The position numbers and the translations under genes were made by a program. A stretch of 64,000 bases of DNA from Escherichia phage LHE287: the sequence record PP761450.1, one strand, 5' to 3'. Shown here piece by piece: positions 1,338 to 63,906 of the stretch (within the stretch, counting starts at the first letter, position 1; every line of letters starts with the position of its first letter). A model generated the notes under the pieces. That model was not told the origin of the DNA. It did not search any database and worked only from the letters and a program-made list of their open reading frames with translations.

Positions 1338-1407
1338 GTTTCTTTCCTGATTAATAAGGGGTGATCTCTCACCCCTGATGATATAACGGTAGTAGGTTTA
1401 GACCAAC

Positions 1408-3690: not shown

Positions 3691-3773
3691 GGTGTTCCTC
3701 GGGTTTGTTTACGCAGGTTTTATTATACGCCGCCCTCGTAGATTGAAGGCGGCAGGGAGGGTTGGTGAGTTAC

Positions 3774-4616: not shown

Positions 4617-4687
4617 GGGAACCTTCCTATATCTCAGGGTGTCATCACCTCTAATTAAGGTGACAACCCCAGCATACCTGAGGATTG

Positions 4688-5513: not shown

Positions 5514-5661
5514 AAGAAAATACCTCCACAATGAATGCAGAGGTATTTAAAGTGAAAGTGAACTACTCGAGGAGCTGGGGGAAGACTTTGTTCGAATGTG
5601 TCGGCAACCCAGAGAGTGCCAAAGAGGATTGAATGACTGCGATCTCCTCCCAAGACCTGAT

Positions 5662-7817: not shown

Positions 7818-7861
7818 ATTTTGCTCATTGTCCTTTCCTTTTGGTGAATAATGAGCAAAAT
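7818..7861. repeat. 12-bp inverted repeat with 20-nt spacer
   Basis: ATTTTGCTCATT ... AATGAGCAAAAT. Confidence 0.8.
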
Positions 7862-7885
7862 TATATGCCTTTATTTCGTATTGAC

Positions 7886-8250: not shown

Positions 8251-8285
8251 CAGAAAAAGAAATCCCCCTGTATTTAAGGGGGATT
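8251..8285 (-). terminator. rho-independent terminator after 8325..8630
   Basis: 9-bp stem AATCCCCCT/AGGGGGATT, then TCTTTTTCTG on minus strand. Confidence 0.7.
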
Positions 8286-8324: not shown

Positions 8325-8630
8325 TTAGTCTTTGTCGGCAGACTTGCCAAAGAAGAATTCGAAGCCGTCATGGACAGCAACGACTTCCTGACCTTGGGAG
8401 ATACCGTGAGTCTGATCCGGAGTCAGCTTCACCTTGATGGTGTTGCCGTTGGTTAACTCCAGGTTGTAGACATCCGCCTGATTGTCAGGAGTGATCTGGG
8501 TCACGGTAGCGCCGGAACACCACTGGGTGCCGTCAGCTTGCTTGGTGATGGATACGGTCTTACCCTGAACACCAGCATGGGTCTGGGGTTGAGCGGCTTG
8601 TTCTTTAAAATATTCGATAAACGGTTTCAT
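8325..8630 (-). CDS. hypothetical protein (101 aa), probable late gene
   Basis: GAGGAG SD; exact TATAAATA box 24 nt upstream; terminator hairpin downstream. Confidence 0.6.
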   Translation of the reverse strand: MKPFIEYFKEQAAQPQTHAGVQGKTVSITKQADGTQWCSGATVTQITPDNQADVYNLELTNGNTIKVKLTPDQTHGISQGQEVVAVHDGFEFFFGKSADKD

Positions 8631-8654
8631 CTTAATCTCCTCGGGGATTTAAGT

Positions 8655-8662
8655 TATTTATA
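8655..8662 (-). promoter_or_regulatory. T4-type late promoter box TATAAATA
   Basis: exact TATAAATA on minus strand 24 nt upstream of ATG 8630. Confidence 0.55.
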
Positions 8663-8678
8663 AGCCCCCGAAGGGGCT
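8663..8678 (-). terminator. hairpin after the 1124-aa gene (terminator-like)
   Basis: AGCCCC-CGAA-GGGGCT; abuts TATAAATA box. Confidence 0.4.
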
Positions 8679-8686
8679 TTTGATGA

Positions 8687-11600
8687 TCAGATCTTAATCT
8701 GCATGTTGCCACCCAGGGACTGCTCGTACTCGCTGTATGCGCCTTCCCCGTAGTCTCGTGCCCACTGGTCAGACTGCTGGGCGCTATCCAGAGTCATCAG
8801 GTTTGGTTCAGTCGGGTTGTAACCCTTGGACTTCGCATCCCGGTACAGAGTCTGCAGGTACTGGTTGGCGCGGTCAATCTGAGCTTTGAACTCGCGATAT
8901 GCCCCTTCAGTTGTGTTGCGGCGGAAGGTGATATCCCAGTCCACGTTCAGAGTCTGACCATCACGGCTTACATAGATCTGCCAATCCAGGTCGCGACCTT
9001 TTGGTGCGTTGTCGCGGATGGAGTCGGCGTATGCCGCAAGGTCGTCCTTCGGATTGTGCGACGTGCTTTTCAGAAGTAGTGCATGACCCATACCACCGTT
9101 TGGCTGAAGAGACCATTTTCCTGTTTCTCTTCCCAGGCGTTCTATGTTGTTGAGTTGGTTTATCGACAATTCAGAAGAGTCAAATAATACCACATCACGT
9201 TTTTTGGGGGTTCTCACATAATGGGTGAGATCAATGTCGATCATCCGGTTTATAAATTCTACCACTTCAGCTTGTTTCTTTGGCAATGTGGTATTGATAT
9301 CCGGCTTGTTTGCCACTTTCTCTAGGCGTTTGTTTTCTGCGCTTATCATGGACAGCATAATTTGTGTAACTTTGCCGTCAGACAAGTTGTAATCATTCCA
9401 AATCACTTCACCTTTATCCGTGATGGTTATATCGTTCAAGAACACCTGGTTTGGGTTGTATGACTGACTTTTCAACTGTTGGAGGTTTCTGGAAAGATAT
9501 TCCATTCTTGATGATATTTCATCAATCATACTCTGGACCACATCTTTGTTCAAAGTAAGTTCATATGTCTTCGGATTGTTCAGGGTACGCCCTTTCTGAG
9601 AGACAATTGGGGTGAATGCAACTTTACCTTTGTCGTAGTAATAGGTCACGTTGGTTATCATAGAAGTACCGGCGTATTTTCCCGTTTCGGGGAAATTGAC
9701 ATCCCACCGAATGGACATACCGTTGACAGTCTCACCAAACACCATGGCGTTGCGCGGTATCTTCAAATTATCCAAAACGGATTGTTCCCCAGAATCAGTG
9801 TTCGGTGGGGTGATATTTTTCTGTTTCCACCAGGCAGTCGCCGCCTTCGTAAACTCTTTAGCCACACCAGACGGAATCGGTGGGAGTTTCAAGGTTTTGG
9901 CCAGGACACCCAAGTCTGAGCCGGACACTTCTGCAAAGGATCTTAATTTTGAGGAAGCACCGTAATACACACCATATACTGGAGTGCCAGAACTTGGTAT
10001 CACATTGATACCACCACCATACATACCTGATTTCTCACGGAACTCCAATACTGGTTGTCCATCAGGTGCCGTTTTGTTATACCAACCAACGACGACGTTC
10101 TCCAAGTTCTTTTCAACGTAGTCCGTTGCTGTTTGAACAAAATCATCAATAATCTTGGGGAATCGTTTTGGATCGCTGATGTCAACATTTTCTAACACAC
10201 CCACAGATGGCGGGAATGCTACCCATTTTTCTGCTGTTGCGTTCCAGGCATTAACAGACATCTGGACTGATTGATTACGTCGCGCAATTGACAGAGTCAG
10301 TTTGTAACGGTCTTTCACAAAGTTCTTGATGTATTCATCATCACCAAATAATTTGCCGCCAGCTGCCTTACTGTAGCCAATGTAATTCAGTAAATTGAGC
10401 CACTTGGATTTGGTAAGTTCACCGCTGTTGTCATTGCCGGTGTCATTGCTGGTGTCAACGTCCACCACCAGAATTATTTGAGAACCTTTCTTGAAAGTGT
10501 ACTGATCGTACATGCCTTTCTTCTGTTTGGTCATGGACGCACCGACCAAGTCTTGGTTGGTGAAGCCGCGCTTCATATTCCAAGATACCTCAGTCCCGTC
10601 TGGATATTTGTCAAAATTATAACCATAGAATACGGCTACTTCTTTCGAACCGCTTATCAGGCGGACGTAGTTTCCACGAATCGGGTCGCGCCCGCTCTTC
10701 AACTCCAGACCAGTGTCCGAGCTGTTGTACCACTCGCGGTTGACTTCGATTTCAGAAGAACCAGCCCCGGTTCCCACACCCCGAGCACCAATAGTGGTGT
10801 TGGAGTCAGCTGGCGCGGACTTCTGCTGAGAACCTTTCCAAAATTTTGTGGACGCCATGGTGAAATCATTCAGGATACTGATAGGGACTTGCGGTAATTT
10901 CAACTGACGAGCAATGAAATCAGCACTTTGCCCACGCACAGGTTTCTCATTCATGTATGCGCCAACATACACGCCCGGCTCATTGTAGTGGGGAGCGATA
11001 TTTGCCGTGTTCATGCGGCCTCTCTCCTTACCAGCCCATAACAACATGGGCTGATCCCCGTTTGAAGTTAATTTCCATCCGTTGGAATTATCAACAGAAG
11101 ATGAAGAACCAGCCCCGGTTCCCAAGTTTGTTTTTCTGGAATCTTCTACGTTTAGATTGAACAATTGTTTCCCAGATGAGTCGGAAGCAATAAATTCATA
11201 TTTCTTGCCACTGCGGGTACTCGTGCTGTTAACTTTGATGTTTCCAGTGTATCTTCCTGGATTCGTTTTTTGCATGAAATTGGTAATTGCAGCAGAAGGG
11301 GTTTTCATCCCAGAAATGATCCTAGCTGTCTCGGGATCAGTGAAAGACACTACGAGTTTGCGCCCATCCATCACTGTGATATCATTTCCAGACACCGAAA
11401 TATCCAAGTCTTCCATTTCAGAACGGAAATCAACACCAACAACAATGGTTTGACCAGTTCCACCCACAACGCCATCAACGCTGTTCTGAACCGGAACGTC
11501 ACCGACCTTGTCTGGATCATCCCAGGTGATACCCTGCATCTTCGGACCGTCAAATACCTGAGCCGGATCTTTACCCTTGCGCACAAGCCACACATAACCA

Positions 11601-12061
11601 CGGTCAGGGACAGGCGCGTAGGTCAGGTCCATGACATTCAGTTTCTGTTTCAGGCCGGACTGGCGGATGATCTTAGGAATCAGGGTCATACCGCGATCCA
11701 GCGCTTTCTTAGAGAAGTTGACAGCAAAGCCATCGATGGTCTTGCCCAGAGGAGTCGCCATGAATTGTTTGGTCGCTTCGATCATGGAAGCGATAACGCG
11801 CATTGGGTTCTTGAAGCGAGCGATGGCGTCAGGATAGACGGAGCCGCGCTTCTGGCCGATGAAAACCTGACGAACGCTCTTACCCAGCCCCTGAGGAGTA
11901 TAGAACTGAATGCGGTATTCCTTATCATCTTCGTCGACGAAGGTAAAGAACACATCGCCTGCGTTCTTCTTACCCATGGTCAGCTCATACGGAGCGGAGT
12001 TGAACGCTTCGTCTAACTGATCTCTTTCCTGCATGAACTGGAGGAAACTTAGCTTTGACAT
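8687..12061 (-). CDS. large repeat-containing protein, possibly a fibre/adhesin-type virion protein
   Basis: 1124 aa, G/S/T/N-rich; internal duplication (...LKLPQVPISILNDFTMASTKFWKG... vs ...LKLPPIPSGVAKEFTKAATAWWKQ...; two GTGAGSS segments); CAGGAG SD; function is inference. Confidence 0.6.
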   Translation of the reverse strand: MSKLSFLQFMQERDQLDEAFNSAPYELTMGKKNAGDVFFTFVDEDDKEYRIQFYTPQGLGKSVRQVFIGQKRGSVYPDAIARFKNPMRVIASMIEATKQFMATPLGKTIDGFAVNFSKKALDRGMTLIPKIIRQSGLKQKLNVMDLTYAPVPDRGYVWLVRKGKDPAQVFDGPKMQGITWDDPDKVGDVPVQNSVDGVVGGTGQTIVVGVDFRSEMEDLDISVSGNDITVMDGRKLVVSFTDPETARIISGMKTPSAAITNFMQKTNPGRYTGNIKVNSTSTRSGKKYEFIASDSSGKQLFNLNVEDSRKTNLGTGAGSSSSVDNSNGWKLTSNGDQPMLLWAGKERGRMNTANIAPHYNEPGVYVGAYMNEKPVRGQSADFIARQLKLPQVPISILNDFTMASTKFWKGSQQKSAPADSNTTIGARGVGTGAGSSEIEVNREWYNSSDTGLELKSGRDPIRGNYVRLISGSKEVAVFYGYNFDKYPDGTEVSWNMKRGFTNQDLVGASMTKQKKGMYDQYTFKKGSQIILVVDVDTSNDTGNDNSGELTKSKWLNLLNYIGYSKAAGGKLFGDDEYIKNFVKDRYKLTLSIARRNQSVQMSVNAWNATAEKWVAFPPSVGVLENVDISDPKRFPKIIDDFVQTATDYVEKNLENVVVGWYNKTAPDGQPVLEFREKSGMYGGGINVIPSSGTPVYGVYYGASSKLRSFAEVSGSDLGVLAKTLKLPPIPSGVAKEFTKAATAWWKQKNITPPNTDSGEQSVLDNLKIPRNAMVFGETVNGMSIRWDVNFPETGKYAGTSMITNVTYYYDKGKVAFTPIVSQKGRTLNNPKTYELTLNKDVVQSMIDEISSRMEYLSRNLQQLKSQSYNPNQVFLNDITITDKGEVIWNDYNLSDGKVTQIMLSMISAENKRLEKVANKPDINTTLPKKQAEVVEFINRMIDIDLTHYVRTPKKRDVVLFDSSELSINQLNNIERLGRETGKWSLQPNGGMGHALLLKSTSHNPKDDLAAYADSIRDNAPKGRDLDWQIYVSRDGQTLNVDWDITFRRNTTEGAYREFKAQIDRANQYLQTLYRDAKSKGYNPTEPNLMTLDSAQQSDQWARDYGEGAYSEYEQSLGGNMQIKI

Positions 12062-12136
12062 TTTATATCTCCTGATTGAATTAATGGCGGTTTCTTCTAA
12101 TTAGCGAAACCAAAAGGGAGCGTCAGCCCCCTTATC

Positions 12137-12472
12137 TTATTTTTGAACTTGGGCTACAGACATCGCCCAGAGCGGGAGGGTGTGGGGGTCCAGGGCTTCC
12201 AGTAGATATTCGACGCGCTCTGACATGATACCTTCAGGGAAGTTTACTTCTTCTGGTTCGTTGTTGGCCGTCCAGCCCAGAGATAACCCTTCAGCGTGAT
12301 GAATGATATAAACGAAGTCGCCTGGTTCGTAGTCCTTTTCCATCAGGGCGAAGAAATCTTCCATTTCTTCGTCGGAGAAGTAGTAGATGCGAGGTACGGA
12401 GCCGTCAGCAAAGTGCTCAGCACCCTGGAAGGCAAACATGTCATCGGCGGTGAAGTTCTTGAGTTGTGTCAT
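12137..12472 (-). CDS. hypothetical protein (112 aa), moron-like
   Basis: ATG 12472 inside conserved leader ...AGGAACTATATCATG shared with loci at 57.2 and 47.9 kb; own promoter and terminator. Confidence 0.55.
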   Translation of the reverse strand: MTQLKNFTADDMFAFQGAEHFADGSVPRIYYFSDEEMEDFFALMEKDYEPGDFVYIIHHAEGLSLGWTANNEPEEVNFPEGIMSERVEYLLEALDPHTLPLWAMSVAQVQK

Positions 12473-12514
12473 GATATAGTTCCTGCTTTTCAAGTTGGTG
12501 TTGTACTGCTTATG
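12473..12514 (-). repeat. conserved 5' leader, cassette copy A
   Basis: minus strand ATAAGCAGTACAACACCAACTTGAAAAGCAGGAACTATATC-ATG; near-identical at 57179-57220, related at 47921-47963. Confidence 0.8.
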
Positions 12515-12578: not shown

Positions 12579-13217
12579 TTACGGCGTCAGATTCACAACC
12601 GGAATGTGGGATCGAATACCTGCGATGATGTCCTTCAGCCGAGGATTCCATCCATCCACCAAACGGGGGAGAGCGATAGCGCCAGGCTGGACCAAAATGA
12701 TGTCGCTGCCTGTGATATTGTGCTGAGGGAACTGGGCAAGGTACTGCTCCATGGTGACACCCTCATCAATCAGAACTGCACCGACGTCAGACGATGCGTA
12801 GGTTGCACCCAGGCCGTCAACACCCCATGCCAAGATACCCCAGTCAGGGATGTTAGCTTCAGATGTGATGGTGAATCCAAACACGGTGTTCAGCGAAGTA
12901 AAGGAGTAGACATCGTGGGTGATGTCATACACCAGATACCCCTTGGCCAGCATATCGGCAAAGATCGCGTCCGTATCGCCAGCAGCCGGAGTCGGTACAG
13001 TAAACAACAGCTCGCCATCAGGAGGAGCAGGATACGTGCCGAGGGCATAGAGGCACCATGCGTCAATACACTTCTTGATAAATGCCTCTGGCGCGACATA
13101 ATCAGCAAGGCGAACCGTACCTGAGTACTCTGATACGATAATGCCTTCCTTCGCACCCTGTAGAGCAATGAAGACCAAGATATGTTCATATCCGGCCTGA
13201 GATGGAGTGATGTTCAT
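12579..13217 (-). CDS. hypothetical protein (212 aa)
   Basis: ATG 13217 overlaps upstream stop (TAATG); AAGAGGA SD. Confidence 0.55.
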   Translation of the reverse strand: MNITPSQAGYEHILVFIALQGAKEGIIVSEYSGTVRLADYVAPEAFIKKCIDAWCLYALGTYPAPPDGELLFTVPTPAAGDTDAIFADMLAKGYLVYDITHDVYSFTSLNTVFGFTITSEANIPDWGILAWGVDGLGATYASSDVGAVLIDEGVTMEQYLAQFPQHNITGSDIILVQPGAIALPRLVDGWNPRLKDIIAGIRSHIPVVNLTP

Positions 13218-13831
13218 TATCTTGTCCTCTTCAGTTTCTCTATTGTGTGCTTGTTCATGGCGATCACCTGAGGATCTACCTCGGAGATGGTCCGGCCTTC
13301 GAAAGACACACATTTCTGAAGATATTTAGCTTTCTTCACGACGTCGGCAGCATAAGCGTTCGATGCGGGATTACGGGCGAAGCCAGCATTGTAAGAGGAG
13401 AGGGATTTGCGGATATTCTGATTGTGATAGGTCAGCCAGAACTGCATCTCATCGAGGGCGGCTTGCGCGGCATATTCTTGGTCGGTCAGCAACTTTATGG
13501 CGACATTGGCATAACACTTGCGATTCTTACAACCTTCGCGATCACCAACTGTCTTCACCTTGTTCTGAAAGGCTCCCATGTTGGCCGCCTTGAGGCCGTA
13601 TCGCATTGACACTACATCTTCGCCAGCGCGGCTCTCTCGCCAAGATATGGCGGCCAGCGTGTAGCCAAGATCTTGTGTCTTGCCTACGTGATAGGCGGTT
13701 GCCATCGTATTAAGTTGTTGCTCGGAGAAATTATAAACACATTGACTTGTATTTTGGGAAGCGTGCACATTCCCGCTGGCAATGGTAAAGGTCACGGACA
13801 AGGCCATGGCCTTCAACGTTGTCATCGTCAT
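13217..13831 (-). CDS. secreted protein, possibly lytic-transglycosylase-like
   Basis: N-terminal signal-peptide-like segment MTMTTLKAMALSVTFTIASGNVHAS; ISWRESRAG...MGAFQ loosely resembles SLT ES...GxMQ pattern; AAGGAA SD. Confidence 0.45.
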   Translation of the reverse strand: MTMTTLKAMALSVTFTIASGNVHASQNTSQCVYNFSEQQLNTMATAYHVGKTQDLGYTLAAISWRESRAGEDVVSMRYGLKAANMGAFQNKVKTVGDREGCKNRKCYANVAIKLLTDQEYAAQAALDEMQFWLTYHNQNIRKSLSSYNAGFARNPASNAYAADVVKKAKYLQKCVSFEGRTISEVDPQVIAMNKHTIEKLKRTR

Positions 13832-13886: not shown

Positions 13887-13923
13887 GTTAAAAGATAAAG
13901 GGCACGTGGTATTTAGTGCCCTT
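13887..13923 (-). terminator. rho-independent terminator after 13929..14213
   Basis: 8-bp stem AAGGGCAC/GTGCCCTT then TATCTTTTAAC on minus strand. Confidence 0.65.
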
Positions 13924-13928
13924 CAGCC

Positions 13929-17032: not shown

Positions 17033-18140
17033 CCAGTTTGTTCAGGCGTTGTTGGGCAGCATTATAGAAGTGCTCTGCCAGTTTACAGACATTGTCGGGG
17101 CGCTGAATGTTGTTCCCGGCGCGGATATCCTTCTTCAGGACTTCCACCGCATCGGTCGCCACCATCTCTTCTGTGACCTCAACCTTCTCGGCAGCAACAG
17201 TAATCGTCCGGTCGATGAAGTTGTAGTCAATACACTTGCATCGCTTCATGGCATCACAGAACTTTTCATAATGCTTAGCATTGTCACGGTTCTGTACAAT
17301 AACCTTAACGATTTGCCCTTCAATACCCAAGCCTGTGTTCAACCATTCCGGGTCGATCCAATTACCTTCTTCATCAGAGGACAACTTGGTGTAATCATAT
17401 TCCACATAGCGGAACAGCGTCTGGTGCTCGGCGTTCGGGATAAAGATCTCACCACCACGCATGTCGTCCACATAGAAGCCACGGTTAGTGCCGTCTTTGT
17501 AGTCTTCCCAGTTCAGGTGATATGGAGTCCCAATATATTGAATGTTACCTTCCATCGAACGGGTATGGAAATGACCCGTGTCGACTCTGGTAAACTTGGA
17601 AAGCAGAGCAACGTCGATCTGACCGTGATCACAAGTAGAAGACTGGTACATTTTGAACCCCGCCAGCTCCAGATGCGCAAAACAGTACTCGGCGTCTGTA
17701 TCTTGTATCGCTTTAATAGACGCATCATAGTTCTCCTTGTTGATCCAAGGCAGCAGTAGAGTCTTGACACCCTCGATCATCACTTCGGTCGGTTCGCTGT
17801 AATAGCAGTACACATCCGGGTCGAGTTCGTTCAGGTAGGATGGCCAGTTGATGCGGTTGGACTCTTCCAGGGTGATGTCATGGTTGCCCACGATACCATT
17901 CCACTTGATACCAGCCGCTTTCAACGCAGGGGTGAGTTCATCCTTCAGCCAGTCTTTGTCACGACCGTACATGAATTTGCGGACATCAAACGTATCACCG
18001 AACTGCCAGACCTCTTTGATATCAGAGTCGGCAAGTTCAGGAATGAAATAATTGATGAGATAGTTCTTGATGAAGTCGCGAACGTATCGAGAACCATTAC
18101 GGCTCCCGATATGCAGATCACCAATTTTAGCAATCGCCAT
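17025..18140 (-). CDS. gp47: recombination nuclease, SbcD/Mre11-like (T4 gp47-like)
   Basis: 371 aa; phosphoesterase motifs IGDLHIG and GNHD; overlaps gp46 start. Confidence 0.9.
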   Translation of the reverse strand: MAIAKIGDLHIGSRNGSRYVRDFIKNYLINYFIPELADSDIKEVWQFGDTFDVRKFMYGRDKDWLKDELTPALKAAGIKWNGIVGNHDITLEESNRINWPSYLNELDPDVYCYYSEPTEVMIEGVKTLLLPWINKENYDASIKAIQDTDAEYCFAHLELAGFKMYQSSTCDHGQIDVALLSKFTRVDTGHFHTRSMEGNIQYIGTPYHLNWEDYKDGTNRGFYVDDMRGGEIFIPNAEHQTLFRYVEYDYTKLSSDEEGNWIDPEWLNTGLGIEGQIVKVIVQNRDNAKHYEKFCDAMKRCKCIDYNFIDRTITVAAEKVEVTEEMVATDAVEVLKKDIRAGNNIQRPDNVCKLAEHFYNAAQQRLNKLDA

Positions 18141-18868
18141 TATTCTGTTTCTCCTTCGGTTTCGTCTAGGCCGAATTGGGTATTGCCGAAGTCCTGATCT
18201 AAATTTTCTTCGACCTGCGCTGGTGTCGTATTCTTAGCCTGCGCCATGTATTGAAGTATGCCTTTCGCAATCTTTTTATTCGATTCTGCGAGACGAGCTG
18301 CTTCCACCTTCTCTCGTTCCTTCTGCCTTTGAGCGTCCTTTTTGTTCTCAAAGTTACCGATACGTTCACGGAAGTCCATGCCAATTCCTGTAGCATCAAC
18401 AAAGATCTCTTGTTGGAAGTCGGGATCGTCTGCCAGGCCTGAGAACCCACCCGCCTCTTCAAATGAGCGCAATTTAATGTACGTGTGCTCTTCTTCGATG
18501 TTCAGTTTACGGGCAAATGAGCGATCAGCACACATGGTCACCCAAGAGAAGAAGTTGATCTTCCCTTTCTTTCCAATGTGTTCGACGTCAAATGTGTGGA
18601 GGTAGCGCAGGATGTTGACTATTGCTTCAGAGACCATGTCTTCACGGAAGGGATAGTCGCGATAGTTGTAGCGGGTACTCATCTTGGTGATGATGCGCTG
18701 GACCTGCAGAGCAACATAGTTGGGGATCTTTGGAAGCCTGGTGCCTTCAGCCAGAGCCTTCTTACGAGCAGGGATCCAATCACGAAGGATACTGATGACA
18801 CGCTCGTTATCTTCGTCTGTGAAATATTTGACGACATTCTCCCCTCTGTCCACGAAGTTCATTCCCAT
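18140..18868 (-). CDS. gp55: late-transcription sigma factor (T4 gp55-like)
   Basis: position 5' of gp47 as in T4; segment IPNYVALQVQRIITKMSTRYNYRDYP...AIVNILRYLHTFD resembles T4 gp55 core; longer than T4 gp55. Confidence 0.6.
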   Translation of the reverse strand: MGMNFVDRGENVVKYFTDEDNERVISILRDWIPARKKALAEGTRLPKIPNYVALQVQRIITKMSTRYNYRDYPFREDMVSEAIVNILRYLHTFDVEHIGKKGKINFFSWVTMCADRSFARKLNIEEEHTYIKLRSFEEAGGFSGLADDPDFQQEIFVDATGIGMDFRERIGNFENKKDAQRQKEREKVEAARLAESNKKIAKGILQYMAQAKNTTPAQVEENLDQDFGNTQFGLDETEGETE

Positions 18869-18879: not shown

Positions 18880-19407
18880 TCAGATACCGATAAATTCATC
18901 AAAAGATCCAACAACCTTCTTCACCGAGATCTTGTCATTCTCAATCAGGAAGTTGCTGTCGTTTTTGGCTGCTGTAGCCCAGTCATCGGCAAGTTCGTTG
19001 CCTTCGTGTCCCGCATGACCCTTAACCCATTTTAGTTCAACATCACAAATTGAACAAACGAGATCATAGATTCTGAACAGATCTTTGATGAGTTCAACGT
19101 TCTTTTCTGGGAAACCCTGATACTCCCACTTCGTTCGCCATTCGGTGACACTCTTGATGGCATATTGGCTGTCAGACCAAATTGTTGCCTTTGGTATTCT
19201 GCGCTCACCCTTTCCTGAGAATGCCCACAGTAGCTTCAATGCGTTGGTCACACCCAACAACTCGGCGATATTGTTAGTGGAAGGGGGAGGTAGATGGCCG
19301 AAGAACACCTTCCATTGCATACCAGTTATTGGCCTGATGACAAATGCCCAGCCTGCGGCCTGGTTGGTCTTCGGGTTAGAACCCCCGTCAGAATAAATTT
19401 CTATCAT
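18880..19407 (-). CDS. rnhA: ribonuclease HI
   Basis: start set at MIEIYSDGG by analogy with E. coli RNase HI N-terminus; catalytic motifs SDGG, AELLGV, WSDSQY, GHAGHEGNELADDWA. Confidence 0.8.
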   Translation of the reverse strand: MIEIYSDGGSNPKTNQAAGWAFVIRPITGMQWKVFFGHLPPPSTNNIAELLGVTNALKLLWAFSGKGERRIPKATIWSDSQYAIKSVTEWRTKWEYQGFPEKNVELIKDLFRIYDLVCSICDVELKWVKGHAGHEGNELADDWATAAKNDSNFLIENDKISVKKVVGSFDEFIGI

Positions 19408-19409
19408 GA

Positions 19410-19417
19410 TATAAATA
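19410..19417 (+). promoter_or_regulatory. T4-type late promoter box TATAAATA (plus strand)
   Basis: exact TATAAATA 35 nt upstream of plus-strand ATG 19453; overlaps RNase H start region. Confidence 0.5.
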
Positions 19418-22718: not shown

Positions 22719-23381
22719 TTACACCTCCACCGCGTGAGACTTCAGGAGTTCATCAATCTCTTTCTGTCCCATGTATGAGAACGGGGTGCGCTGGTAGAAC
22801 GCCCAGAGTACTAACTGGACAACAGCACGGGAACGGGTTTCGGCCGTCATCACCAGGCCACTGAAATGAGGAGACTCAGCTGTCCATTGTATCTCTTCGC
22901 CCAGGTCTTGATTACAGGTCACCGAGATGCGGAACTTGTTGCACAGATTGTCGACTTCTTTGTACGCATCGGTAGACACACGAAGTTGTTCCGCATGCGC
23001 CCACGGAGTTGTGACGATTCTTTCACCCATCACTTTATCAGAGATAAACCAATCAATACATTCGGTAAACTCACTAAAATGGTCGATACGATAAATGCAG
23101 TCTCCCCCTTCCATAGAACGCATGGCATGATAGCGAGCGTCGATTTCGTTGTTGTGCATCGCGTTGAAGTCGATGAACACGCGACGCGCCAGCACAACAT
23201 CTTCTGGTTGAAGTGCCAAGAAATCGTTCAGGCGGCTATAATGGAGGATATTGGAACCGTCGTGGCCACGTGTGCAATATGCGTAATAGCTACCGATACG
23301 GGCGTGGGCAATATAAGACAACGGGGCGAAGAATAATCCGTCAGGATCAGGACCGACGATAATAGAATAAAGTTTTTCCAT
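22719..23381 (-). CDS. hypothetical protein (220 aa)
   Basis: ATG 23381 in ...GACTATATCATG leader-type context. Confidence 0.5.
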   Translation of the reverse strand: MEKLYSIIVGPDPDGLFFAPLSYIAHARIGSYYAYCTRGHDGSNILHYSRLNDFLALQPEDVVLARRVFIDFNAMHNNEIDARYHAMRSMEGGDCIYRIDHFSEFTECIDWFISDKVMGERIVTTPWAHAEQLRVSTDAYKEVDNLCNKFRISVTCNQDLGEEIQWTAESPHFSGLVMTAETRSRAVVQLVLWAFYQRTPFSYMGQKEIDELLKSHAVEV

Positions 23382-23437
23382 GATATAGTCACTCAAATGA
23401 AAGGGCAGCTTTATGATAAGCCGCCCGAGGTTATTGA

Positions 23438-26363: not shown

Positions 26364-26734
26364 AACGTACCCCCGACAGAGATCAAGAACTCTTCTTGCA
26401 TGGTCTTGACCGGGTGGTGGTTGCGGGTTTCGAACATGAAGCCCCAGCCACCGTCGGCGACGTTGCCAAAGGTCTTGACGCCAAAGGACTTCGTCCCGTT
26501 GGAGCAGGAATAGATGTCCAGGACGTATGGGCTACCCTGATTGTCGATCCCACGATTCACGTCGTCTGATACGCAGCGCTCAATCATCTTCCCGTTCTTA
26601 TACAGAACGAGGTCTTGGCCATACGCCTTGAAAGCATAAACACCGTTGGTAGACACTCCGGTGATGACAGGAGGGGCGGAAACAGCAGCAAAGGAAGCGC
26701 CCAGCAGGGCAACAGCGAGGATTAACTTTTTCAT
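26360..26734 (-). CDS. secreted protein (124 aa)
   Basis: ATG 26734; signal peptide MKKLILAVALLGASFAAVSA. Confidence 0.55.
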   Translation of the reverse strand: MKKLILAVALLGASFAAVSAPPVITGVSTNGVYAFKAYGQDLVLYKNGKMIERCVSDDVNRGIDNQGSPYVLDIYSCSNGTKSFGVKTFGNVADGGWGFMFETRNHHPVKTMQEEFLISVGGTL

Positions 26735-26749
26735 GATATAGTCTCTTGG

Positions 26750-26778
26750 TTTCAAATAGACGGGGTAATCATACCCCG
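26750..26778 (-). terminator. rho-independent terminator after 26794..27033
   Basis: CGGGGTA-ATCA-TACCCCG then TCTATTTG on minus strand. Confidence 0.65.
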
Positions 26779-26793
26779 CCCAAAGTTATAGAA

Positions 26794-27033
26794 TTAACTG
26801 ATGTGCTTCAGAAGAGCGAAGAGGATCGCGGCCTTGGCCTTTACCTTTCCTACGATGCCTGTTTCGACATCAACTTCTTCAGCAACCCACTCTTTTCCCT
26901 TCTTGCTGATGATAACGTCACGACGCTGTGCGTAGACTTCTTTGGTCGCATACACACGGCGGAACCCTTTAGCGCGGAGCAATCCCCAATTGCGATCAAT
27001 TTCTACTGAGGTTTCTACCATTTTGTTCTTCAT
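26794..27033 (-). CDS. hypothetical small basic protein (79 aa)
   Basis: own promoter-terminator cassette (copy 1 of 57-bp repeat). Confidence 0.5.
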   Translation of the reverse strand: MKNKMVETSVEIDRNWGLLRAKGFRRVYATKEVYAQRRDVIISKKGKEWVAEEVDVETGIVGKVKAKAAILFALLKHIS

Positions 27034-27084
27034 GATATAATCTTACCTTTCAACCCGGTGAACCCATCGTTCGCCAGTTATTGA

Positions 27085-27166: not shown

Positions 27167-27391
27167 CTATTTAATTTCTCGGCTTGAATTTTCTAGTTCT
27201 AATTTTCTTATAGCGGAAATTCTGCCTTCATCAGTTGCGGGAAACTCCCAAACAGCACGACGCCCATTGTTGGTATCACAACTTGCCAGCCAGCAGAAAT
27301 TAGAGGGGTCCTTAAACAAGACCAACTTCGGATTTCCTAAATTGATGAGGTTAAACGGGGTGAGGTCAACAACACATGATATAGCAGACAT
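27167..27391 (-). CDS. hypothetical small protein (74 aa)
   Basis: flanked by both copies of 57-bp promoter/terminator repeat; GAAGG SD. Confidence 0.5.
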   Translation of the reverse strand: MSAISCVVDLTPFNLINLGNPKLVLFKDPSNFCWLASCDTNNGRRAVWEFPATDEGRISAIRKLELENSSREIK

Positions 27392-34374: not shown

Positions 34375-34418
34375 TTTACTATCCTCAATGATGAATGGGT
34401 TACAATTTCAAATCAGGT

Positions 34419-36437: not shown

Positions 36438-36551
36438 GATGTAATCTTCCTGTTTCAGTTCAAATGTGCGCCCCGTTTGCTAGGGCGCTTCGTTTAAGTG
36501 AGGTCAATATACGCTGGATTGAGTTATTGAAGAACGAAGTAAAGGAAATCT

Positions 36552-37775: not shown

Positions 37776-37843
37776 GGTATCCTCTTAGAATACGAAAACA
37801 GAGGCCATTATAGCCTCTGTTGTTTAGTGAATAACTGTATATC

Positions 37844-39226: not shown

Positions 39227-39649
39227 CTATTTAGCCTTGCGCGGTTTCGCTTTGGCGTTCAGCTCAGTGCGTCTCATCTTCTCGCGTATCTCGGCCAGGA
39301 CTTCCTTCGGCAAGAAACGGACGTACTCCGATGCCTTCTCCATGCTGATGTAGAAGTACTCGGAGAGTAACTTCACGTCAGGATCAATCGGACCTTTCTT
39401 AGACCATTTGTCGTAGCGTTTCCGAGCCGGAATGGTGTAAAAGGCATATGACCATTGCATCCATGGAGTGATAGCATGTAGCTTATTCATCTGTTGTGCA
39501 GCCACTAGTGTGTCTTTGCTCTGAGCTAAACCACGCCGCGTCATAAACGGGTCGAATCCTTTCAACACTTCTGGGTCATCAGACCGCAAAAGGTTTTCTT
39601 TGCTGCTGTTCAGAGCAGCCAGGTAATCGAACAATCCAAGGGCGGCCAT
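39227..39649 (-). CDS. gp62: clamp-loader small subunit (T4 gp62-like)
   Basis: AFYTIPARKRYDKWSKK vs T4 gp62 AVPRGKRYGKWAK; follows gp44 as in T4. Confidence 0.65.
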   Translation of the reverse strand: MAALGLFDYLAALNSSKENLLRSDDPEVLKGFDPFMTRRGLAQSKDTLVAAQQMNKLHAITPWMQWSYAFYTIPARKRYDKWSKKGPIDPDVKLLSEYFYISMEKASEYVRFLPKEVLAEIREKMRRTELNAKAKPRKAK

Positions 39650-40643: not shown

Positions 40644-40723
40644 TTCAGCCTCGTGTAGAAGAATCATTTCAAATAGGCGGGGAACGCCCCGCCCACACAT
40701 TATAGCATCAGGCTGGAGATTGA

Positions 40724-41392
40724 TTACTCAATCTGTGCGCCGACGAAGTAATTGATCGTCGCGTCGGATGATTGGAAGTTCACCATCTGTAGATCAGCAC
40801 AGGCACGCAGAGTGTAGTTGCCTTCGATCATTTTCAGGTTGGCAACATCCAGTGGCATTACGAAGTCCGGCAGCGCGGTTTCGCCCAGCTCAACAGTGTA
40901 GTTGTTGGAGTTGTCTAGGGTAGTGGTGGTTGCAACCAGGCGTGTTTTGCCACCCTGAGCAACCAGACGCACAGTCTTGTGTCCGAGGGTAGAGCAGGCG
41001 CGGGTCAGTTCTTTCATCTTCTCTGGAGTGATGATCGCTTCAAAGTCAACAGACGGCAGTTCAATAGTATCAGCCGGAACAACAGTGAGTTCTTTAGCAG
41101 AACGCCAGAATTGCAGCTGAGAGCTTTCGCCTTTCAACAGGATGTAGTCCTGATGAAATTCGGCTTTGGCACCTTTGAAGGAAGGTAGGCGCTGGATGGC
41201 CAGAAGTTTGGTCAGGTCCAGAATCGGGAACTCAAACGGGAAGTCTTCTTCGATCTGCGCCACGGCGATCACAGTAGAAGAATCATTAATACTGCGCAGC
41301 ATCTTGCCTGGTGTCAGAACGATAGATGGGTTGATGGTCTCAAAGTTGGCCAGCAACTGAAGTGTACGTTCGGAGAGAGTGATCTCTTGCAT
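40724..41392 (-). CDS. gp45: sliding clamp (T4 gp45-like)
   Basis: 222 aa; LQLLANFETINPSIVL vs T4 gp45 TALLKNFATINSGIML; GAGGA SD. Confidence 0.85.
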   Translation of the reverse strand: MQEITLSERTLQLLANFETINPSIVLTPGKMLRSINDSSTVIAVAQIEEDFPFEFPILDLTKLLAIQRLPSFKGAKAEFHQDYILLKGESSQLQFWRSAKELTVVPADTIELPSVDFEAIITPEKMKELTRACSTLGHKTVRLVAQGGKTRLVATTTTLDNSNNYTVELGETALPDFVMPLDVANLKMIEGNYTLRACADLQMVNFQSSDATINYFVGAQIE

Positions 41393-43630: not shown

Positions 43631-43658
43631 ACAAAATCTCCCAAGGATTATGGGGTAT

Positions 43659-44405
43659 TTAGTGATCCGGCCAGACTCCGTTTTGTTCTTTATCCATGCG
43701 ATGATACAGACGAACACGCTCAAACATCTTTGTCAGAATGTCATCACGGTTGAACTCAATGACGGTTGGTAGAGGGGAAGACTCGTTGGCAATCACGTTG
43801 ATGAGGCGGGTGATCTTGACGCCGAACATCTGCTGGAACATGACCGAATATAAGCACAGCTGGATACTGTAATCCTCGATCATGCCCCGCGTCTTCATGG
43901 TGTTCGATGTCTTGAAGTCGATGACAGCAGGTTTACCCTCATAAACCCCGATAAGGTCTACACGGCCTGCAAGACCAAGCACCTCGCTATATAATGGGAT
44001 CTCCTGAGCATAGATCTTTGTCATCTTGTTCAGGTAAGGGAACAGCTGCTTGAACATGAACATGTATTCACCAGCCGCTTCCAACACTTCTTTCATTGGG
44101 CGGTTCTTTAGATACAGTTCACAAGCAAGGTGCAGCTTCTCCCCTCGGTCAGCACAGCGCATGGTCTCAAGATCAGCGGCCTCTGCGCCCAGCTTCTTCC
44201 TCCAAGACTCAAGCCATTCATGATCTCCAGTGCGTCCCAGCATAGTCGTGACGGATGTCAGTTTAACACCAGACGGTGAAACGTAATGACGACCATTCTC
44301 CGTCGTAACACACTCCAGTTCCTTATGAGGAAGTTCGTATTGCTGGAATGTGTAATGACGGTTTTCGAAGTCATTCAGCTTGCGTAGATCCTGGAGAGAT
44401 GCCAT
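43659..44405 (-). CDS. PD-(D/E)XK family nuclease (Cas4/RecB-like)
   Basis: 248 aa; GRVDLIGVY...AVIDFKTS and YSIQLCLY (QxxxY) motifs. Confidence 0.55.
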   Translation of the reverse strand: MASLQDLRKLNDFENRHYTFQQYELPHKELECVTTENGRHYVSPSGVKLTSVTTMLGRTGDHEWLESWRKKLGAEAADLETMRCADRGEKLHLACELYLKNRPMKEVLEAAGEYMFMFKQLFPYLNKMTKIYAQEIPLYSEVLGLAGRVDLIGVYEGKPAVIDFKTSNTMKTRGMIEDYSIQLCLYSVMFQQMFGVKITRLINVIANESSPLPTVIEFNRDDILTKMFERVRLYHRMDKEQNGVWPDH

Positions 44406-46824: not shown

Positions 46825-46856
46825 AAGAAAATACCCCCATGGATGATGGGGGTATT
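46821..46856 (-). terminator. rho-independent terminator
   Basis: 10-bp stem AATACCCCCA/TGGGGGTATT then TTTTCTT on minus strand. Confidence 0.6.
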
Positions 46857-46862
46857 TAGGGA

Positions 46863-47033: not shown

Positions 47034-47072
47034 GATGTATCTCCGCTGTGTGCTCAAATTATTTATGATATG

Positions 47073-51919: not shown

Positions 51920-52011
51920 GATGGTCATTCCTTACATTGATATTCAGTTAAGTTGAAATTACTTAGTAGTTCAAAATCAAGCCCCCTTTTCGAGGGCTGT
52001 GGCTGCTAAAA

Positions 52012-52863: not shown

Positions 52864-52908
52864 GATTGTTTCCTTCTGAACGATTTTCAGTATTTAGTGA
52901 GGCTGAAT

Positions 52909-53902: not shown

Positions 53903-54124
53903 TTACTGGTCGTCGCCGAAAGGACCCATGTCTTGGCTCAGGGAGTTCAAGACATATTCAGTACCCTGCTGGACCAGTTCTTGGGCGCGAGCGGATAGCT
54001 CCATTTCGCATTCAGCAGCAGCGGCATCAGTATCACCGGCGATGATTGCTTTTACCAGATCGATAGCAGCCATGTTCATATCCTCTAAATGTTTTCTATA
54101 CTTAGTCGAATTATTCTTCACCAC
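53903..54124 (-). CDS. gp67: prohead core protein (gp67-like)
   Basis: small acidic ORF between portal and gp68; start uncertain. Confidence 0.5.
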   Translation of the reverse strand: MVKNNSTKYRKHLEDMNMAAIDLVKAIIAGDTDAAAAECEMELSARAQELVQQGTEYVLNSLSQDMGPFGDDQ

Positions 54125-55805: not shown

Positions 55806-55871
55806 GATTAAGTCCTCAACATTTTCTTGTAATTAGTGAGGGGGAATAAAGATCCCCCAGCACTGAGGACA

Positions 55872-56430: not shown

Positions 56431-56438
56431 ATATTTAG
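56431..56438 (-). promoter_or_regulatory. candidate late promoter variant CTAAATAT upstream of tail tube gene
   Basis: minus strand aaCTAAATATt 25 nt upstream of gp19 ATG. Confidence 0.35.
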
Positions 56439-56821
56439 TTTTGAAATAAATGGGGGTTAAAATACCCCAAAGTGAGGATATTTATTATGTCATTCCCCCG
56501 ATAAAATTGTTCATGCTACCACAAACCGTTCACCCCAACCAGGAAGGCTGCGTTGTATTGTAGTGACGAATGTAAATCATTCATGCTGGGAACGATGAAA
56601 CGCAACTCAGATTTATTGGTCAATCTTCCGGCGACCGAAACTGAATGCCGCTCTTGGGTTGATAGTAAACTCAGGAAGAAAGATGGTTCGTTGAACTTGG
56701 ATACGATACAGAAGGAAAACAGAGGATATGCTGGCGATAGAAGCCGGGTTGGGTGTATCTGGGGTGTGGTCTTATCCGGTATGAACTGGAAACTAAAACC
56801 CCGCCTCAGCGGGGTAAACTA

Positions 56822-59592: not shown

Positions 59593-59600
59593 ATATTTAG
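59593..59600 (-). promoter_or_regulatory. candidate late promoter variant CTAAATAT upstream of tail sheath gene
   Basis: minus strand CTAAATAT about 42 nt upstream of gp18 ATG. Confidence 0.35.
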
Positions 59601-59603
59601 TGA

Positions 59604-63869: not shown

Positions 63870-63877
63870 GTATTTAG
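63870..63877 (-). promoter_or_regulatory. candidate late promoter variant CTAAATAC upstream of gp14
   Basis: minus strand CTAAATAC 23 nt upstream of ATG 63847. Confidence 0.35.
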
Positions 63878-63906
63878 TCGAAGTTTATTCTTTTGAGGAA
63901 TAGCTC

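What the first reader, a model, noticed from the sequence alone, without database searches (positions are those of the whole stretch)
8646..8670. Two late-promoter box types: exact TATAAATA and a CTAAATA variant
Exact T4-type TATAAATA occurs 24 nt upstream of ATG 8630 and 35 nt upstream of the plus-strand ATG 19453 (19410-19417). The structural genes gp19, gp18 and gp14 instead have CTAAATA(T/C) at comparable distance (56431-56438, 59593-59600, 63870-63877), and the endolysin has TTTAAATAC. The gp55-like sigma here may therefore recognise a relaxed NTAAATA core.
Basis: partly seen in the sequence, partly recalled or inferred. Interest (0 to 1): 0.4.

Follow-up and report, generated by a model that had tools for sequence, protein, structure and literature searches.

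The report
Late-gene promoter boxes of a ViI-like phage
The short TATAAATA and CTAAATA boxes are real and are almost certainly one class of late-gene promoters read by this ViI-like (Ackermannviridae) phage's T4-type gp55 sigma factor, but the motif has already been described for this phage family, so the finding is ordinary.

Summary
The window comes from an Agtrevirus-like Ackermannviridae phage, about 98% identical to phages ZQ1 and AV101. It encodes a gp55 late-sigma homologue and the gp45 clamp.

TAAATA is the most enriched hexamer upstream of genes: 11 of 24 copies lie 15-50 nt before a start codon. All 10 CTAAATA copies lie on the gene-sense strand, against 3.7 expected.

Comparison across six genera shows one promoter class, not two. 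The consensus is aCTAAATA. Position -12 is C, less often A or T, and never G. Position -8 is A, less often T or G. No -35 element is present.

The window's TATAAATA at 8655-8662 is orthologous to CTAAATA in CBA120 and CTAATTA in T765.

At the endolysin and one other gene, the box lies in the 5' arm of a conserved hairpin that buries the ribosome-binding site. T4 gene e is arranged the same way.

The motif is already published for this family as CTAAATAcCcc. Orthologous boxes are annotated as putative late promoters in the phage LIMEstone1 record, and Aeromonas phage Aeh1 uses CTAAATA. No 5'-end mapping was found. Interest is low.

The parts
8655..8662 (-). TATAAATA box, 24 nt before ATG 8630 of a 101-aa gene (phrog_4048). 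It directly follows the hairpin GCCCCTTCGGGGGC.
   Evidence: The orthologous position holds TATAAATA in AV101 and Kamild, CTAAATA in CBA120 and CTAATTA in T765. No sigma-70-type promoter overlaps it.
19410..19417 (+). TATAAATA box, 35 nt before ATG 19453 of a 255-aa plus-strand gene (phrog_3833). It is the only promoter candidate in the 45-nt divergent gap shared with the RNase H gene.
   Evidence: TATAA(A/G)TA is kept in all six genera compared. No sigma-70-type promoter overlaps it. Caveat: its complement also lies in the TATATC-ATG initiation region of RNase H.
5544..5551 (-). TTTAAATA box, 30 nt before the endolysin ATG 5513.
   Evidence: TAAATACC is conserved in six genera, preceded by T or A.
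5518..5548 (-). Endolysin leader hairpin. The 5' arm AAATACCTC overlaps the box. The 3' arm GAGGTATTT holds the Shine-Dalgarno sequence.
   Evidence: The read-through RNA folds at -17.9 kcal/mol (z = -3.3). RNA starting at the predicted +1 shows no such fold (-4.6 kcal/mol, z = 0.25). 13 pairs are predicted and 4 show compensatory changes across genera.
8271..8278 (-). CTTAAATA box in the loop of terminator hairpin 8261-8285, 31 nt before ATG 8239 (DUF5856 / MobD.6-like gene).
   Evidence: The box is CTAAATA in AV101, CBA120 and Kamild. T765 keeps the box without the hairpin.
12098..12105 (-). GCTAATTA variant box, 36 nt before ATG 12061 of the 1124-aa gene.
   Evidence: CGCTAATTA is found in five genomes. 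CTAAATA occupies the same place in KNP4 and phiEa2809.
13910..13917 (-). ACTAAATA box in the loop of a terminator-like hairpin, 78 nt before the probable start ATG 13831 of a Vs.1-like secreted protein. Candidate site.
   Evidence: Conserved in five genomes, with CTAATTA in T765.
39228..39235 (-). GCTAAATA box, 30 nt before regA ATG 39197. It overlaps the last codons and stop of gp62. Candidate site.
   Evidence: Relatives have CTAAGTA. Conservation is confounded by coding sequence.
43656..43663 (-). ACTAAATA(CCCC) box, 25 nt before uvsW ATG 43630. It matches the published CTAAATAcCcc in full.
   Evidence: Conserved in all six genera.
46853..46860 (-). CCTAAATA(CCCC) box, 28 nt before the conserved ATG 46824 of a 242-aa gene. 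AV101 annotates this gene 14 codons longer, starting at the position equivalent to 46866.
   Evidence: TAAATACCC is conserved in six genera, preceded by C, T or A.
46829..46857 (-). Leader hairpin AAATACCCCC/GGGGGTATTT that buries the Shine-Dalgarno sequence of the gene starting at 46824.
   Evidence: Folds at -19.5 kcal/mol (z = -3.2). The fold is lost in RNA starting at the predicted +1. 12 pairs are predicted and 3 show compensatory changes.
47060..47067 (-). CATAAATA box, 26 nt before ATG 47033 of a 56-aa gene.
   Evidence: Present in AV101, CBA120 (as TATAAATA) and Kamild. Absent in T765.
51960..51967 (-). ACTAAGTA variant box, 40 nt before the major capsid gp23 ATG 51919. It follows a terminator hairpin.
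   Evidence: The same variant is found in five genomes. ACTAAATA occupies the same place in KNP4 and phiEa2809.
52891..52898 (-). ACTAAATA box, 27 nt before the gp22 scaffold ATG 52863.
   Evidence: Identical in all seven genomes. LIMEstone1 annotates the ortholog as a putative late promoter.
54099..54106 (-). ACTAAGTA variant box, 25 nt before ATG 54073 of a 56-aa head-module gene.
   Evidence: The box is ACTAAATA in CBA120, T765 and phiEa2809.
55830..55837 (-). ACTAATTA variant box, 24 nt before the portal gp20 ATG 55805.
   Evidence: The box is CACTAAATA in KNP4 and phiEa2809.
56432..56439 (-). ACTAAATA box, 26 nt before the tail tube gp19 ATG 56405. A TAAATA on the plus strand (56428-56433) overlaps it.
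   Evidence: The same box and ribosome-binding site are annotated as a late promoter in LIMEstone1, but lie about 250 nt further upstream there.
59594..59601 (-). ACTAAATA box, 42 nt before the tail sheath gp18 ATG 59551.
   Evidence: Conserved in all genera. Annotated in LIMEstone1.
63871..63878 (-). ACTAAATA box, 23 nt before the neck gp14 ATG 63847.
   Evidence: Conserved in all genera, with CTAAGTA in KNP4.
18140..18868 (-). gp55 homologue, the late sigma factor (242 aa). This is the presumed reader of the boxes.
   Evidence: phrog_234 'late sigma transcription factor', E = 5.7e-52. A family profile hits only T4 gp55 (7d7c_F) in the PDB, E = 3.9e-7. hhalign gives 84% probability.
40724..41392 (-). 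gp45 sliding clamp homologue, the presumed activator of late transcription.
   Evidence: 100% identical to the AV101 protein annotated as the sliding clamp.

Best explanation
The boxes are the -10-like elements of gp55-dependent late promoters of an Ackermannviridae phage. They form one class with consensus aCTAAATA at -13 to -6. The bases T-11, A-10, A-9, T-7 and A-6 were fixed in the search pattern, so only -13, -12 and -8 were free to vary; few orthologs lack a box. Position -12 is C, less often A or T, and not G. Position -8 is A, less often T or G. There is no -35 element.

Shown here: the sequence pattern, its placement, its conservation, and the presence of gp55 and gp45 homologues. Inferred from the T4 paradigm: host core RNA polymerase carrying the phage gp55 homologue (18868-18140) melts the box and reads the non-template strand. 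It is helped by a gp33 homologue encoded outside the window and by the gp45 clamp (41392-40724) loaded on replicating DNA. Transcription then starts about 6 nt downstream, giving 5' leaders of roughly 17-36 nt.

The two exact TATAAATA boxes are simply the members with T and A at -13 and -12.

At the endolysin and the gene starting at 46824, the promoter lies in the 5' arm of a hairpin that pairs with the ribosome-binding site. Read-through early RNA would therefore be untranslatable, while RNA started at the late promoter would be translated.
For: Enrichment. TAAATA is the top upstream hexamer and ACTAAATA the top 8-mer. Single-substitution control hexamers are not enriched, except TAAGTA and TAATTA. 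All 10 CTAAATA copies are on the gene-sense strand, against 3.7 expected.

Genome-wide in AV101. 28 of 58 TAAATA copies lie 15-50 nt before a start. The downstream genes include gp48, gp4, gp54, gp2, gp5, gp22, gp18, gp14, VriC, three tailspike genes, gp6, the endolysin and uvsW. Back-to-back boxes sit in the short divergent gaps gp48/gp4 and gp54/gp2, where promoters must exist.

Anatomy. Information content is below 0.21 bit at every position from -41 to -12, so there is no -35 element. No sigma-70-type promoter overlaps either TATAAATA.

Conservation. The boxes persist in six genera while their flanks diverge. A, C and T interchange at -12, and A, G and T at -8, at orthologous sites.

The reader protein. 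The gp55 homologue is supported. Four T4 pocket residues whose alanine substitution impairs open-complex formation are kept: N13, R57, F86 and T99. Y97 becomes Trp and H95 becomes Phe.

Leader hairpins. The hairpins show covariation and match the documented T4 gene e logic.

Prior annotation. The same boxes are annotated in LIMEstone1 and the motif is cited for the family.
Against: There is no experimental 5'-end or gp55-dependence data for any Ackermannviridae phage in the searchable literature.

The expected A at +1 is frequent (17 of 28) but not significantly more so than at non-promoter TAAATA copies (p = 0.14).

The conservation table was built with the pattern TAA[AGT]TA, so invariance of the other five positions is partly by construction.

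The regA box overlaps coding sequence. The complement of the hyp255 box lies in the RNase H translation-initiation region.

A few box-preceded genes in AV101, such as the DNA polymerase gene, are not expected to be late.

gp33 is not in the window.
Confidence: 0.85

Rival explanations
1. There are two distinct promoter classes. TATAAATA boxes and CTAAATA boxes would be read with different efficiency, at different times, or by different factors, giving two late sub-programmes.
For: The virion genes gp23, gp22, gp20, gp19, gp18 and gp14 all carry AC at -13/-12. A or T at -12 is seen only before small or non-structural genes and the endolysin. The hyp255 box keeps TA at -13/-12 in all six genera.
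Against: At the hyp101, MobD.6, endolysin and 46824 sites the -12 base switches between A, C and T among genera. Only one gp55 homologue was noticed, although the other ORFs were not screened. In AV101, ATAAATA, CTAAATA and TTAAATA are each strongly enriched in the promoter zone (p = 2e-9, 4e-18 and 6e-7).
Confidence: 0.08
2. The two exact TATAAATA copies are incidental AT-rich sequence with no promoter role. One would be the tail of the hairpin at 8663-8677. The other would be the spacer of the RNase H ribosome-binding region on the opposite strand.
For: The count is not above chance. The 8662 box abuts a hairpin. The complement of the 19410 box fits the recurrent TATATC-ATG pattern.
Against: Both sit at promoter distance in the sense orientation. 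The chance of that is about 2% each. hyp255 has no other promoter candidate in its 45-nt divergent gap. At the 8662 site, related genera keep a box (CTAAATA or CTAATTA) rather than a T-tract.
Confidence: 0.05
3. The boxes are -10 elements for host sigma-70 polymerase, or they are RNA-level signs such as a nuclease or RegA site rather than promoters.
For: TATAAA resembles TATAAT. The elements are strand-specific and close to ribosome-binding sites.
Against: There is no -35 or TG extension. The window has a separate, enriched sigma-70-like motif, TTCAAT-N14-TATAAT. CTAAATA matches TATAAT poorly. Boxes occur in divergent gaps where no upstream RNA on that strand is expected. The downstream genes are mostly virion genes.
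Confidence: 0.02

Closest known systems
Conserved 'CTAAATAcCcc' regulatory motif and putative late promoters of ViI-like phages (Viunalikevirus, now Ackermannviridae)
   Same: The sequence, the orthologous positions and the downstream genes are the same. PMC7283392 lists CTAAATAcCcc as one of two unique regulatory motifs found in the Agtrevirus-like phage EspM4VN. The LIMEstone1 record HE600015 marks the orthologous TAAATA boxes before gp22, gp18 and gp14, and the one beside a homing endonuclease, as 'minus_10_signal, putative late promoter'. From my own memory, the motif stems from Adriaenssens et al. 2012, Arch Virol, which could not be fetched.
   Different: Nothing essential differs. This analysis adds the degeneracy at -12 and -8, shown by orthologous replacement, and the variants CTAAGTA and CTAATTA before gp23 and gp20. 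The earlier Ag3 paper searched with TATAAATA plus one mismatch and found only 17 sites. The CBA120 paper called the signal unidentified.
Phage T4 late promoter TATAAATA read by gp55, gp33 and gp45
   Same: Both are an 8-bp -10-like element at -13 to -6 with no -35 element, placed just upstream of virion and lysis genes. Homologues of gp55 and gp45 are present here, and gp33 is present in the close relative AV101. Two sites here are exact TATAAATA.
   Different: The preferred base at -12 is C rather than the A that T4 gp55 flips into a pocket against Y97. Position -8, which is flipped into a pocket with T99 in T4, tolerates G and T here. The gp55 here shares only about 21% identity with T4 gp55. 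It has Trp for Y97, Phe for H95, a 5-residue loop insertion and a C-terminal extension after the putative clamp-binding motif.
Aeromonas phage Aeh1 late promoter CTAAATA (Nolan et al. 2006)
   Same: Both have the same 7-mer starting at -12, with C as a strong determinant, in a T4-superfamily phage with a diverged gp55.
   Different: Aeh1 gp55 keeps His95 and Tyr97 as in T4. The C preference is therefore not explained by the Tyr-to-Trp change seen here. The two phages belong to different families, Straboviridae and Ackermannviridae.
T4 gene e (also soc, 49, I-TevI) translational gating by a leader hairpin with an internal late promoter
   Same: The late promoter lies in the DNA encoding the 5' strand of a hairpin that sequesters the Shine-Dalgarno sequence. 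Late transcripts lack that strand. The same layout is seen at the endolysin and at the 46824 gene.
   Different: The endolysin here is an unrelated enzyme, a PF11860 muramidase with a PG_binding_1 domain. The arrangement is inferred from sequence and covariation only.

Membership tests
T4-type gp55-dependent late promoter | Short -10-like element TATAAATA at -13 to -6 | tested here: inconclusive
   The core TAAATA is present at 12 sites and TAA(G/T)TA at 5 more. An exact TATAAATA is present at only 2 of the 17 sites. The majority carry C at -12.
T4-type gp55-dependent late promoter | No -35 element | tested here: met
   Information content is at most 0.21 bit at all positions from -41 to -12 across 41 AV101 sites. 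No sigma-70-type match lies at the two TATAAATA sites.
T4-type gp55-dependent late promoter | Placed immediately upstream of late (virion, lysis) genes in the sense orientation | tested here: met
   In the window the boxes precede gp23, gp22, gp20, gp19, gp18, gp14, the endolysin and uvsW. In AV101 they also precede baseplate and tailspike genes. Distances are 23-42 nt.
T4-type gp55-dependent late promoter | The phage encodes gp55, gp33 and gp45 homologues | tested here: met
   gp55 is at 18868-18140. gp45 is at 41392-40724. gp33 is annotated in the 98%-identical AV101 outside the window; it is not present in the window itself.
T4-type gp55-dependent late promoter | Primary transcript 5' ends about 6 nt downstream; dependence on gp55 and on DNA replication | not testable with these tools
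   No transcript data were found for the family.
Ackermannviridae CTAAATAcCcc motif | Sequence match to CTAAATAcCcc | tested here: met
   CTAAATACCCC occurs at 43662-43652 and 46859-46849. CTAAATA occurs 10 times against 3.7 expected.
Ackermannviridae CTAAATAcCcc motif | Conserved at orthologous sites across the family | tested here: met
   Six genera were compared. The boxes are annotated in LIMEstone1.
Sigma-70 (host) promoter | TTGACA-like -35 hexamer 16-18 nt upstream of a TATAAT-like -10 hexamer ending in T | tested here: not met
   A separate motif of this type, TTCAAT-N14-TATAAT, exists elsewhere in the window.
T4 gene e-type leader hairpin gating | Shine-Dalgarno sequence paired in a hairpin whose 5' strand contains the late promoter, so that late RNA lacks that strand | tested here: met
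   Endolysin hairpin 5518-5548 and hairpin 46829-46857 have z about -3.2. The fold is lost in RNA starting at the predicted +1. Compensatory pairs are seen.
T4 gene e-type leader hairpin gating | Early read-through RNA is untranslated and late RNA is translated | not testable with these tools
   This needs expression data.

The most novel reading that the evidence does not exclude
The Ackermannviridae gp55 may be a natural specificity variant of the T4 late sigma. Its -12 pocket, with Trp109 in place of T4 Tyr97, would prefer a flipped cytosine while still accepting A or T and excluding G. Its -8 pocket would be permissive. If so, the 17 or more graded boxes per 64 kb could set promoter strength, with AC-type boxes driving virion genes and A/T-type boxes driving accessory genes. 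This would give a tractable system to learn how a minimal sigma-R2 domain reads flipped bases.
Probability: 0.3. Interest if true: 0.35.

Novelty: already known. Interest (0 to 1): 0.15.

Why it matters
The practical value is small. The motif lets late transcription units in this and related therapeutic or biocontrol phages be annotated correctly. The boxes before gp23 and gp20 escape a TATAAATA or CTAAATA search, and one gene start (46824) is probably mis-annotated in relatives. The results also suggest that endolysin synthesis is held back until late by an RNA hairpin, as in T4. The degeneracy at -12 and -8, together with the Tyr-to-Trp change in gp55, offers a modest lead for structure-function work on gp55-type sigmas. 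Nothing here challenges current understanding.

Tried and rejected
- **Direct gp55 comparison failed.** BLASTP of the window gp55 against T4 gp55, phmmer against PDB sequences and Pfam gave nothing. Only a family profile and PHROGs linked the two proteins.
- **A simple -12 code was rejected.** I tested whether the Tyr97-to-Trp change explains the C preference by looking at Aeh1, which also uses CTAAATA. Aeh1 keeps Tyr97 and His95.
- **A at +1 was not significant.** I tested for an enriched initiating A at +1. It is frequent, but not significantly more so than at control copies (p = 0.14).
- **The PhoH site was left out.** I considered the conserved CTTAATTA before PhoH (4652-4657). It sits in a palindrome next to a TATGCT -10-like box, so I did not include it.
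- **Other weak sites were left out.** These are the CACAAAATA-like sequence before gp3, the CTAAATA copies inside coding sequence at 13323-13329 and 63831-63837, and the TAAATA at 27168-27173. None has clear support.
- **Literature searches were limited.** The original 2012 Viunalikevirus paper is not held. The 2024 family review does not mention promoters. No Ackermannviridae transcriptome paper was found.
- **The first gene map was replaced.** A greedy ORF map was too crude, so I mapped AV101 proteins onto the window instead.

Full report
**What the window is.** The 64-kb window is about 98% identical to Escherichia phages vB_EcoM-ZQ1 and AV101, which are Ackermannviridae of subfamily Aglimvirinae and Agtrevirus-like. 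GC content is about 49%. I mapped the AV101 proteins onto the window to build a map of 74 genes. Nearly all lie on the minus strand. They include RNR, PhoH, the endolysin, primase, gp46/47, a gp55 homologue (18868-18140), gp45/44/62, regA, uvsW, uvsY and the head-tail module gp23 to gp14.

**Checking the observation.** Every coordinate is right. TATAAATA occurs exactly twice, at 8662-8655 (minus strand) and 19410-19417 (plus strand). These lie 24 and 35 nt before ATG 8630 and ATG 19453. CTAAATA(T/C) lies 26, 42 and 23 nt before gp19, gp18 and gp14. TTTAAATAC lies 30 nt before a PF11860 muramidase with a PG_binding_1 domain, which is the endolysin.

Two copies of TATAAATA are not by themselves above chance: 0.65 are expected, and 13% of shuffles reach 2. 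The wider pattern is. In an unbiased k-mer test on the 70 nt upstream of the 74 genes, TAAATA is the most enriched hexamer (11 of 24 copies, p = 7e-10). It beats the Shine-Dalgarno words and TATAAT. ACTAAATA is the top 8-mer, with 5 of 6 copies upstream. CTAAATA occurs 10 times against 3.7 expected, no shuffle reaches 10, and all copies are on the gene-sense strand. Among 20 single-substitution control hexamers, only TAAGTA and TAATTA share the placement.

**Genome-wide test in a close relative.** I assembled the whole AV101 genome with its 199 annotated genes. Of 58 TAAATA copies, 28 lie 15-50 nt upstream of a start codon in the sense orientation. That zone covers 2.3% of positions (p = 2e-30). 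The downstream genes are largely the late set: gp48, gp4, gp54, gp2, gp5, gp22, gp18, gp14, VriC, three tailspike genes, gp6, the endolysin and uvsW. In the short divergent gaps gp48/gp4 and gp54/gp2, two boxes stand back to back, exactly where two promoters must exist.

I aligned 41 sites, including the TAAGTA and TAATTA variants. No position from -41 to -12 carries more than 0.21 bit, so there is no -35 element. The base before TAAATA is C in 13, A in 7, T in 6 and G in 2 of the near-start sites. Elsewhere the counts are C 5, A 5, T 9 and G 11. C is enriched (p = 0.015) and G is depleted (p = 0.007). ATAAATA, CTAAATA and TTAAATA are each strongly enriched in the promoter zone.

**Phylogenetic footprinting.** I fetched the homologous ~64 kb from five further genera: CBA120 (Kuttervirus), Kamild (Limestonevirus), T765 (Taipeivirus), KNP4 (Miltonvirus) and phiEa2809 (Nezavisimistyvirus). 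I then compared the regions upstream of orthologous starts.
- The boxes before gp22, gp18, gp14, uvsW, the endolysin and hyp255 persist in all genera while their flanks diverge.
- gp23, gp20, a 56-aa head-module gene and the 1124-aa gene seemed to lack a box here. They carry ACTAAGTA or (A/G)CTAATTA at the right distance. At the same positions Miltonvirus and Nezavisimistyvirus have ACTAAATA.
- The window's exact TATAAATA at 8662-8655 corresponds to CTAAATA in CBA120 and CTAATTA in T765.

The 'T4-type' and 'CTAAATA-type' boxes therefore interconvert at one orthologous site. They belong to one class, and position -8 is also relaxed.

Over 110 orthologous instances, -12 is C in 83, A in 18, T in 9 and G in 0. 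Position -8 is A in 79, T in 16 and G in 15. That table was compiled with the pattern TAA[AGT]TA, so invariance of the other five positions is partly by construction. In all I count 17 sites in the window. The regA and Vs.1-like sites are the weaker candidates.

**The reader protein.** ORF 18868-18140 matches PHROG 234, 'late sigma transcription factor', at E = 5.7e-52. A profile of 18 family members hits a single PDB sequence, T4 gp55 in 7D7C/7D7D, at E = 3.9e-7. hhalign agrees at 84% probability. Plain BLASTP, phmmer and Pfam see nothing.

In the T4 open complex, gp55 flips A-12 into a deep pocket against Y97. A-9 lies against N13 and H95. A-8 enters a pocket and bonds with T99. In the alignment, N13, R57, F86 and T99 are conserved here as N21, R66, F93 and T111, and all four are invariant in the family. 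Y97 is Trp109, H95 is Phe107 and L54 is Met63. A 5-residue insertion precedes this segment.

That fits an altered -12 preference but does not prove it. Aeh1, whose late promoter is also CTAAATA, keeps Tyr97 and His95. No simple residue code follows.

**Independent architectural support.** At the endolysin, the box's 3' half plus the downstream bases (AAATACCTC...) pair with GAGGTATTT, which contains the Shine-Dalgarno sequence. The same holds for the gene whose conserved start is ATG 46824, with arms AAATACCCCC and GGGGGTATTT. AV101 annotates that gene 14 codons too long.

Read-through RNAs fold at -17.9 and -19.5 kcal/mol (z about -3.2). RNAs beginning at the predicted +1 do not fold this way. 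Six-genus alignments show compensatory changes in 4 and 3 pairs. This is the documented logic of T4 genes e, soc, 49 and I-TevI. It only makes sense if transcription starts just downstream of the box.

Two further boxes, before the MobD.6-like and Vs.1-like genes, sit in the loops of terminator hairpins. Several others directly follow a terminator hairpin.

**What is already known.**
- The 2011 Ag3 paper searched with TATAAATA plus one mismatch and found 17 sites.
- The CBA120 paper stated that the late signal was unidentified.
- The LIMEstone paper reported 33 late promoters. Its GenBank record marks the orthologous TAAATA boxes before gp22, gp18 and gp14, and beside a homing endonuclease, as putative late promoters.
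- A 2020 paper lists CTAAATAcCcc and TTCAAT[N14]TATAAT as the two unique regulatory motifs. From memory, these derive from the 2012 Viunalikevirus paper, which I could not fetch. The second motif is also in this window: one exact copy at 3747-3722, and 6 copies with at most 1 mismatch against 0.14 expected.
- Aeh1 provides an older precedent for C at -12.
- I found no transcript mapping for the family.

**Verdict.** The two-type framing is artificial, the degeneracy is H rather than N at -12, and the -8 variants were missed.

The mechanism is inferred from the T4 paradigm plus strong comparative evidence. I put it at about 0.85. It is an already-described family feature and therefore of low interest. 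The modest additions are the orthologous-replacement evidence for -12 and -8 tolerance, the Tyr-to-Trp pocket change, and the T4-e-like gating of an unrelated endolysin.

Noticed in passing
window 5518-5548 and 46829-46857 (minus strand): Conserved leader hairpins pair the Shine-Dalgarno sequence with a 5' arm that contains the late box. This matches T4 gene e-type translational gating. One hairpin precedes the endolysin and the other precedes a 242-aa gene of unknown function.
   Followed up: yes
window 46824 vs 46866 (minus strand): The start codon conserved in six genera is ATG 46824, preceded by GGGGGTATTTTCTT. AV101 annotates its ortholog from the ATG that corresponds to window 46866, 14 codons upstream, which would place the promoter box inside the gene. 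This is probably a mis-annotated start.
   Followed up: partly
window 8261-8285 and about 13900-13925 (minus strand): Late boxes lie in the loops of terminator-type hairpins, so a terminator and the next promoter share about 25 bp. In T765 the box before the MobD.6-like gene persists without the hairpin.
   Followed up: partly
window 3722-3747 (exact); 7860-7885, 19029-19054, 36506-36531, 40699-40724, 48986-49011 (1 mismatch), all minus strand: The second published family motif, TTCAAT-N14-TATAAT, is a sigma-70-like and presumably early promoter. It is strongly enriched: 6 copies against 0.14 expected.
   Followed up: partly
window about 37790-37815, 26760-26785, 23400-23425 (minus strand): TATAAT- or TATGAT-like -10 boxes lie inside the loops of GC-rich hairpins, for example CAGAGGC-TATAATG-GCCTCTG followed by TTTTCG. 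This is the same terminator-promoter overlap, but for the early promoter type.
   Followed up: no
window 1396-1402, 34417-34423, 41695-41701 (+), 47879-47885, 57220-57226: A recurrent (G/T)TCTAAAC word lies upstream of several non-late genes, about where a -35 element would be. It may be part of another promoter class.
   Followed up: no
window, e.g. 12470-12478, 19405-19413, 23379-23387, 26732-26740, 27031-27039, 48710-48718, 57176-57184: Eight genes have the identical spacer TATATC directly before ATG, usually as CTATATC-ATG. This is an unusually uniform translation-initiation region.
   Followed up: no
window 8325-8630 (minus strand): The gene behind the TATAAATA box encodes 101 aa. These match only residues 1-100 of the 192-aa orthologs in AV101 and of phrog_4048. 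A deletion of about 280 nt appears to have truncated it.
   Followed up: partly
window 56405-57655: The region upstream of gp19 is rearranged relative to AV101 and LIMEstone1. An ACTAAATA box and ribosome-binding site that lie about 250 nt further upstream in LIMEstone1 are fused directly to gp19 here. The usual CTAATTA promoter is lost, and the second codon changes from Ser to Ala. The 1.25-kb gap holds different small ORFs, in a zone that carries homing endonucleases in relatives.
   Followed up: partly
window 18140-18868 (minus strand): gp55 of this clade is 242 aa, shared with 7 near-identical database proteins. Other Ackermannviridae have 256-263 aa, so the last ~20 residues are missing here. 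The putative clamp-binding motif GILQYM is internal rather than C-terminal as in T4.
   Followed up: no
window 13217-13831 (minus strand): The Vs.1-like gene probably starts at 13831 and encodes 204 aa. The product has a signal-peptide-like N-terminus. AV101 annotates a shorter form, and Kamild labels the ortholog as RegB family, which looks doubtful.
   Followed up: no
window 8687-12061 (minus strand): A 1124-aa protein shares only its N-terminal ~200 aa at high identity with the 906-aa AV101 ortholog. It also has a short segment resembling an internal head protein (phrog_7673). The gene is modular and variable and has a late-type box.
   Followed up: no
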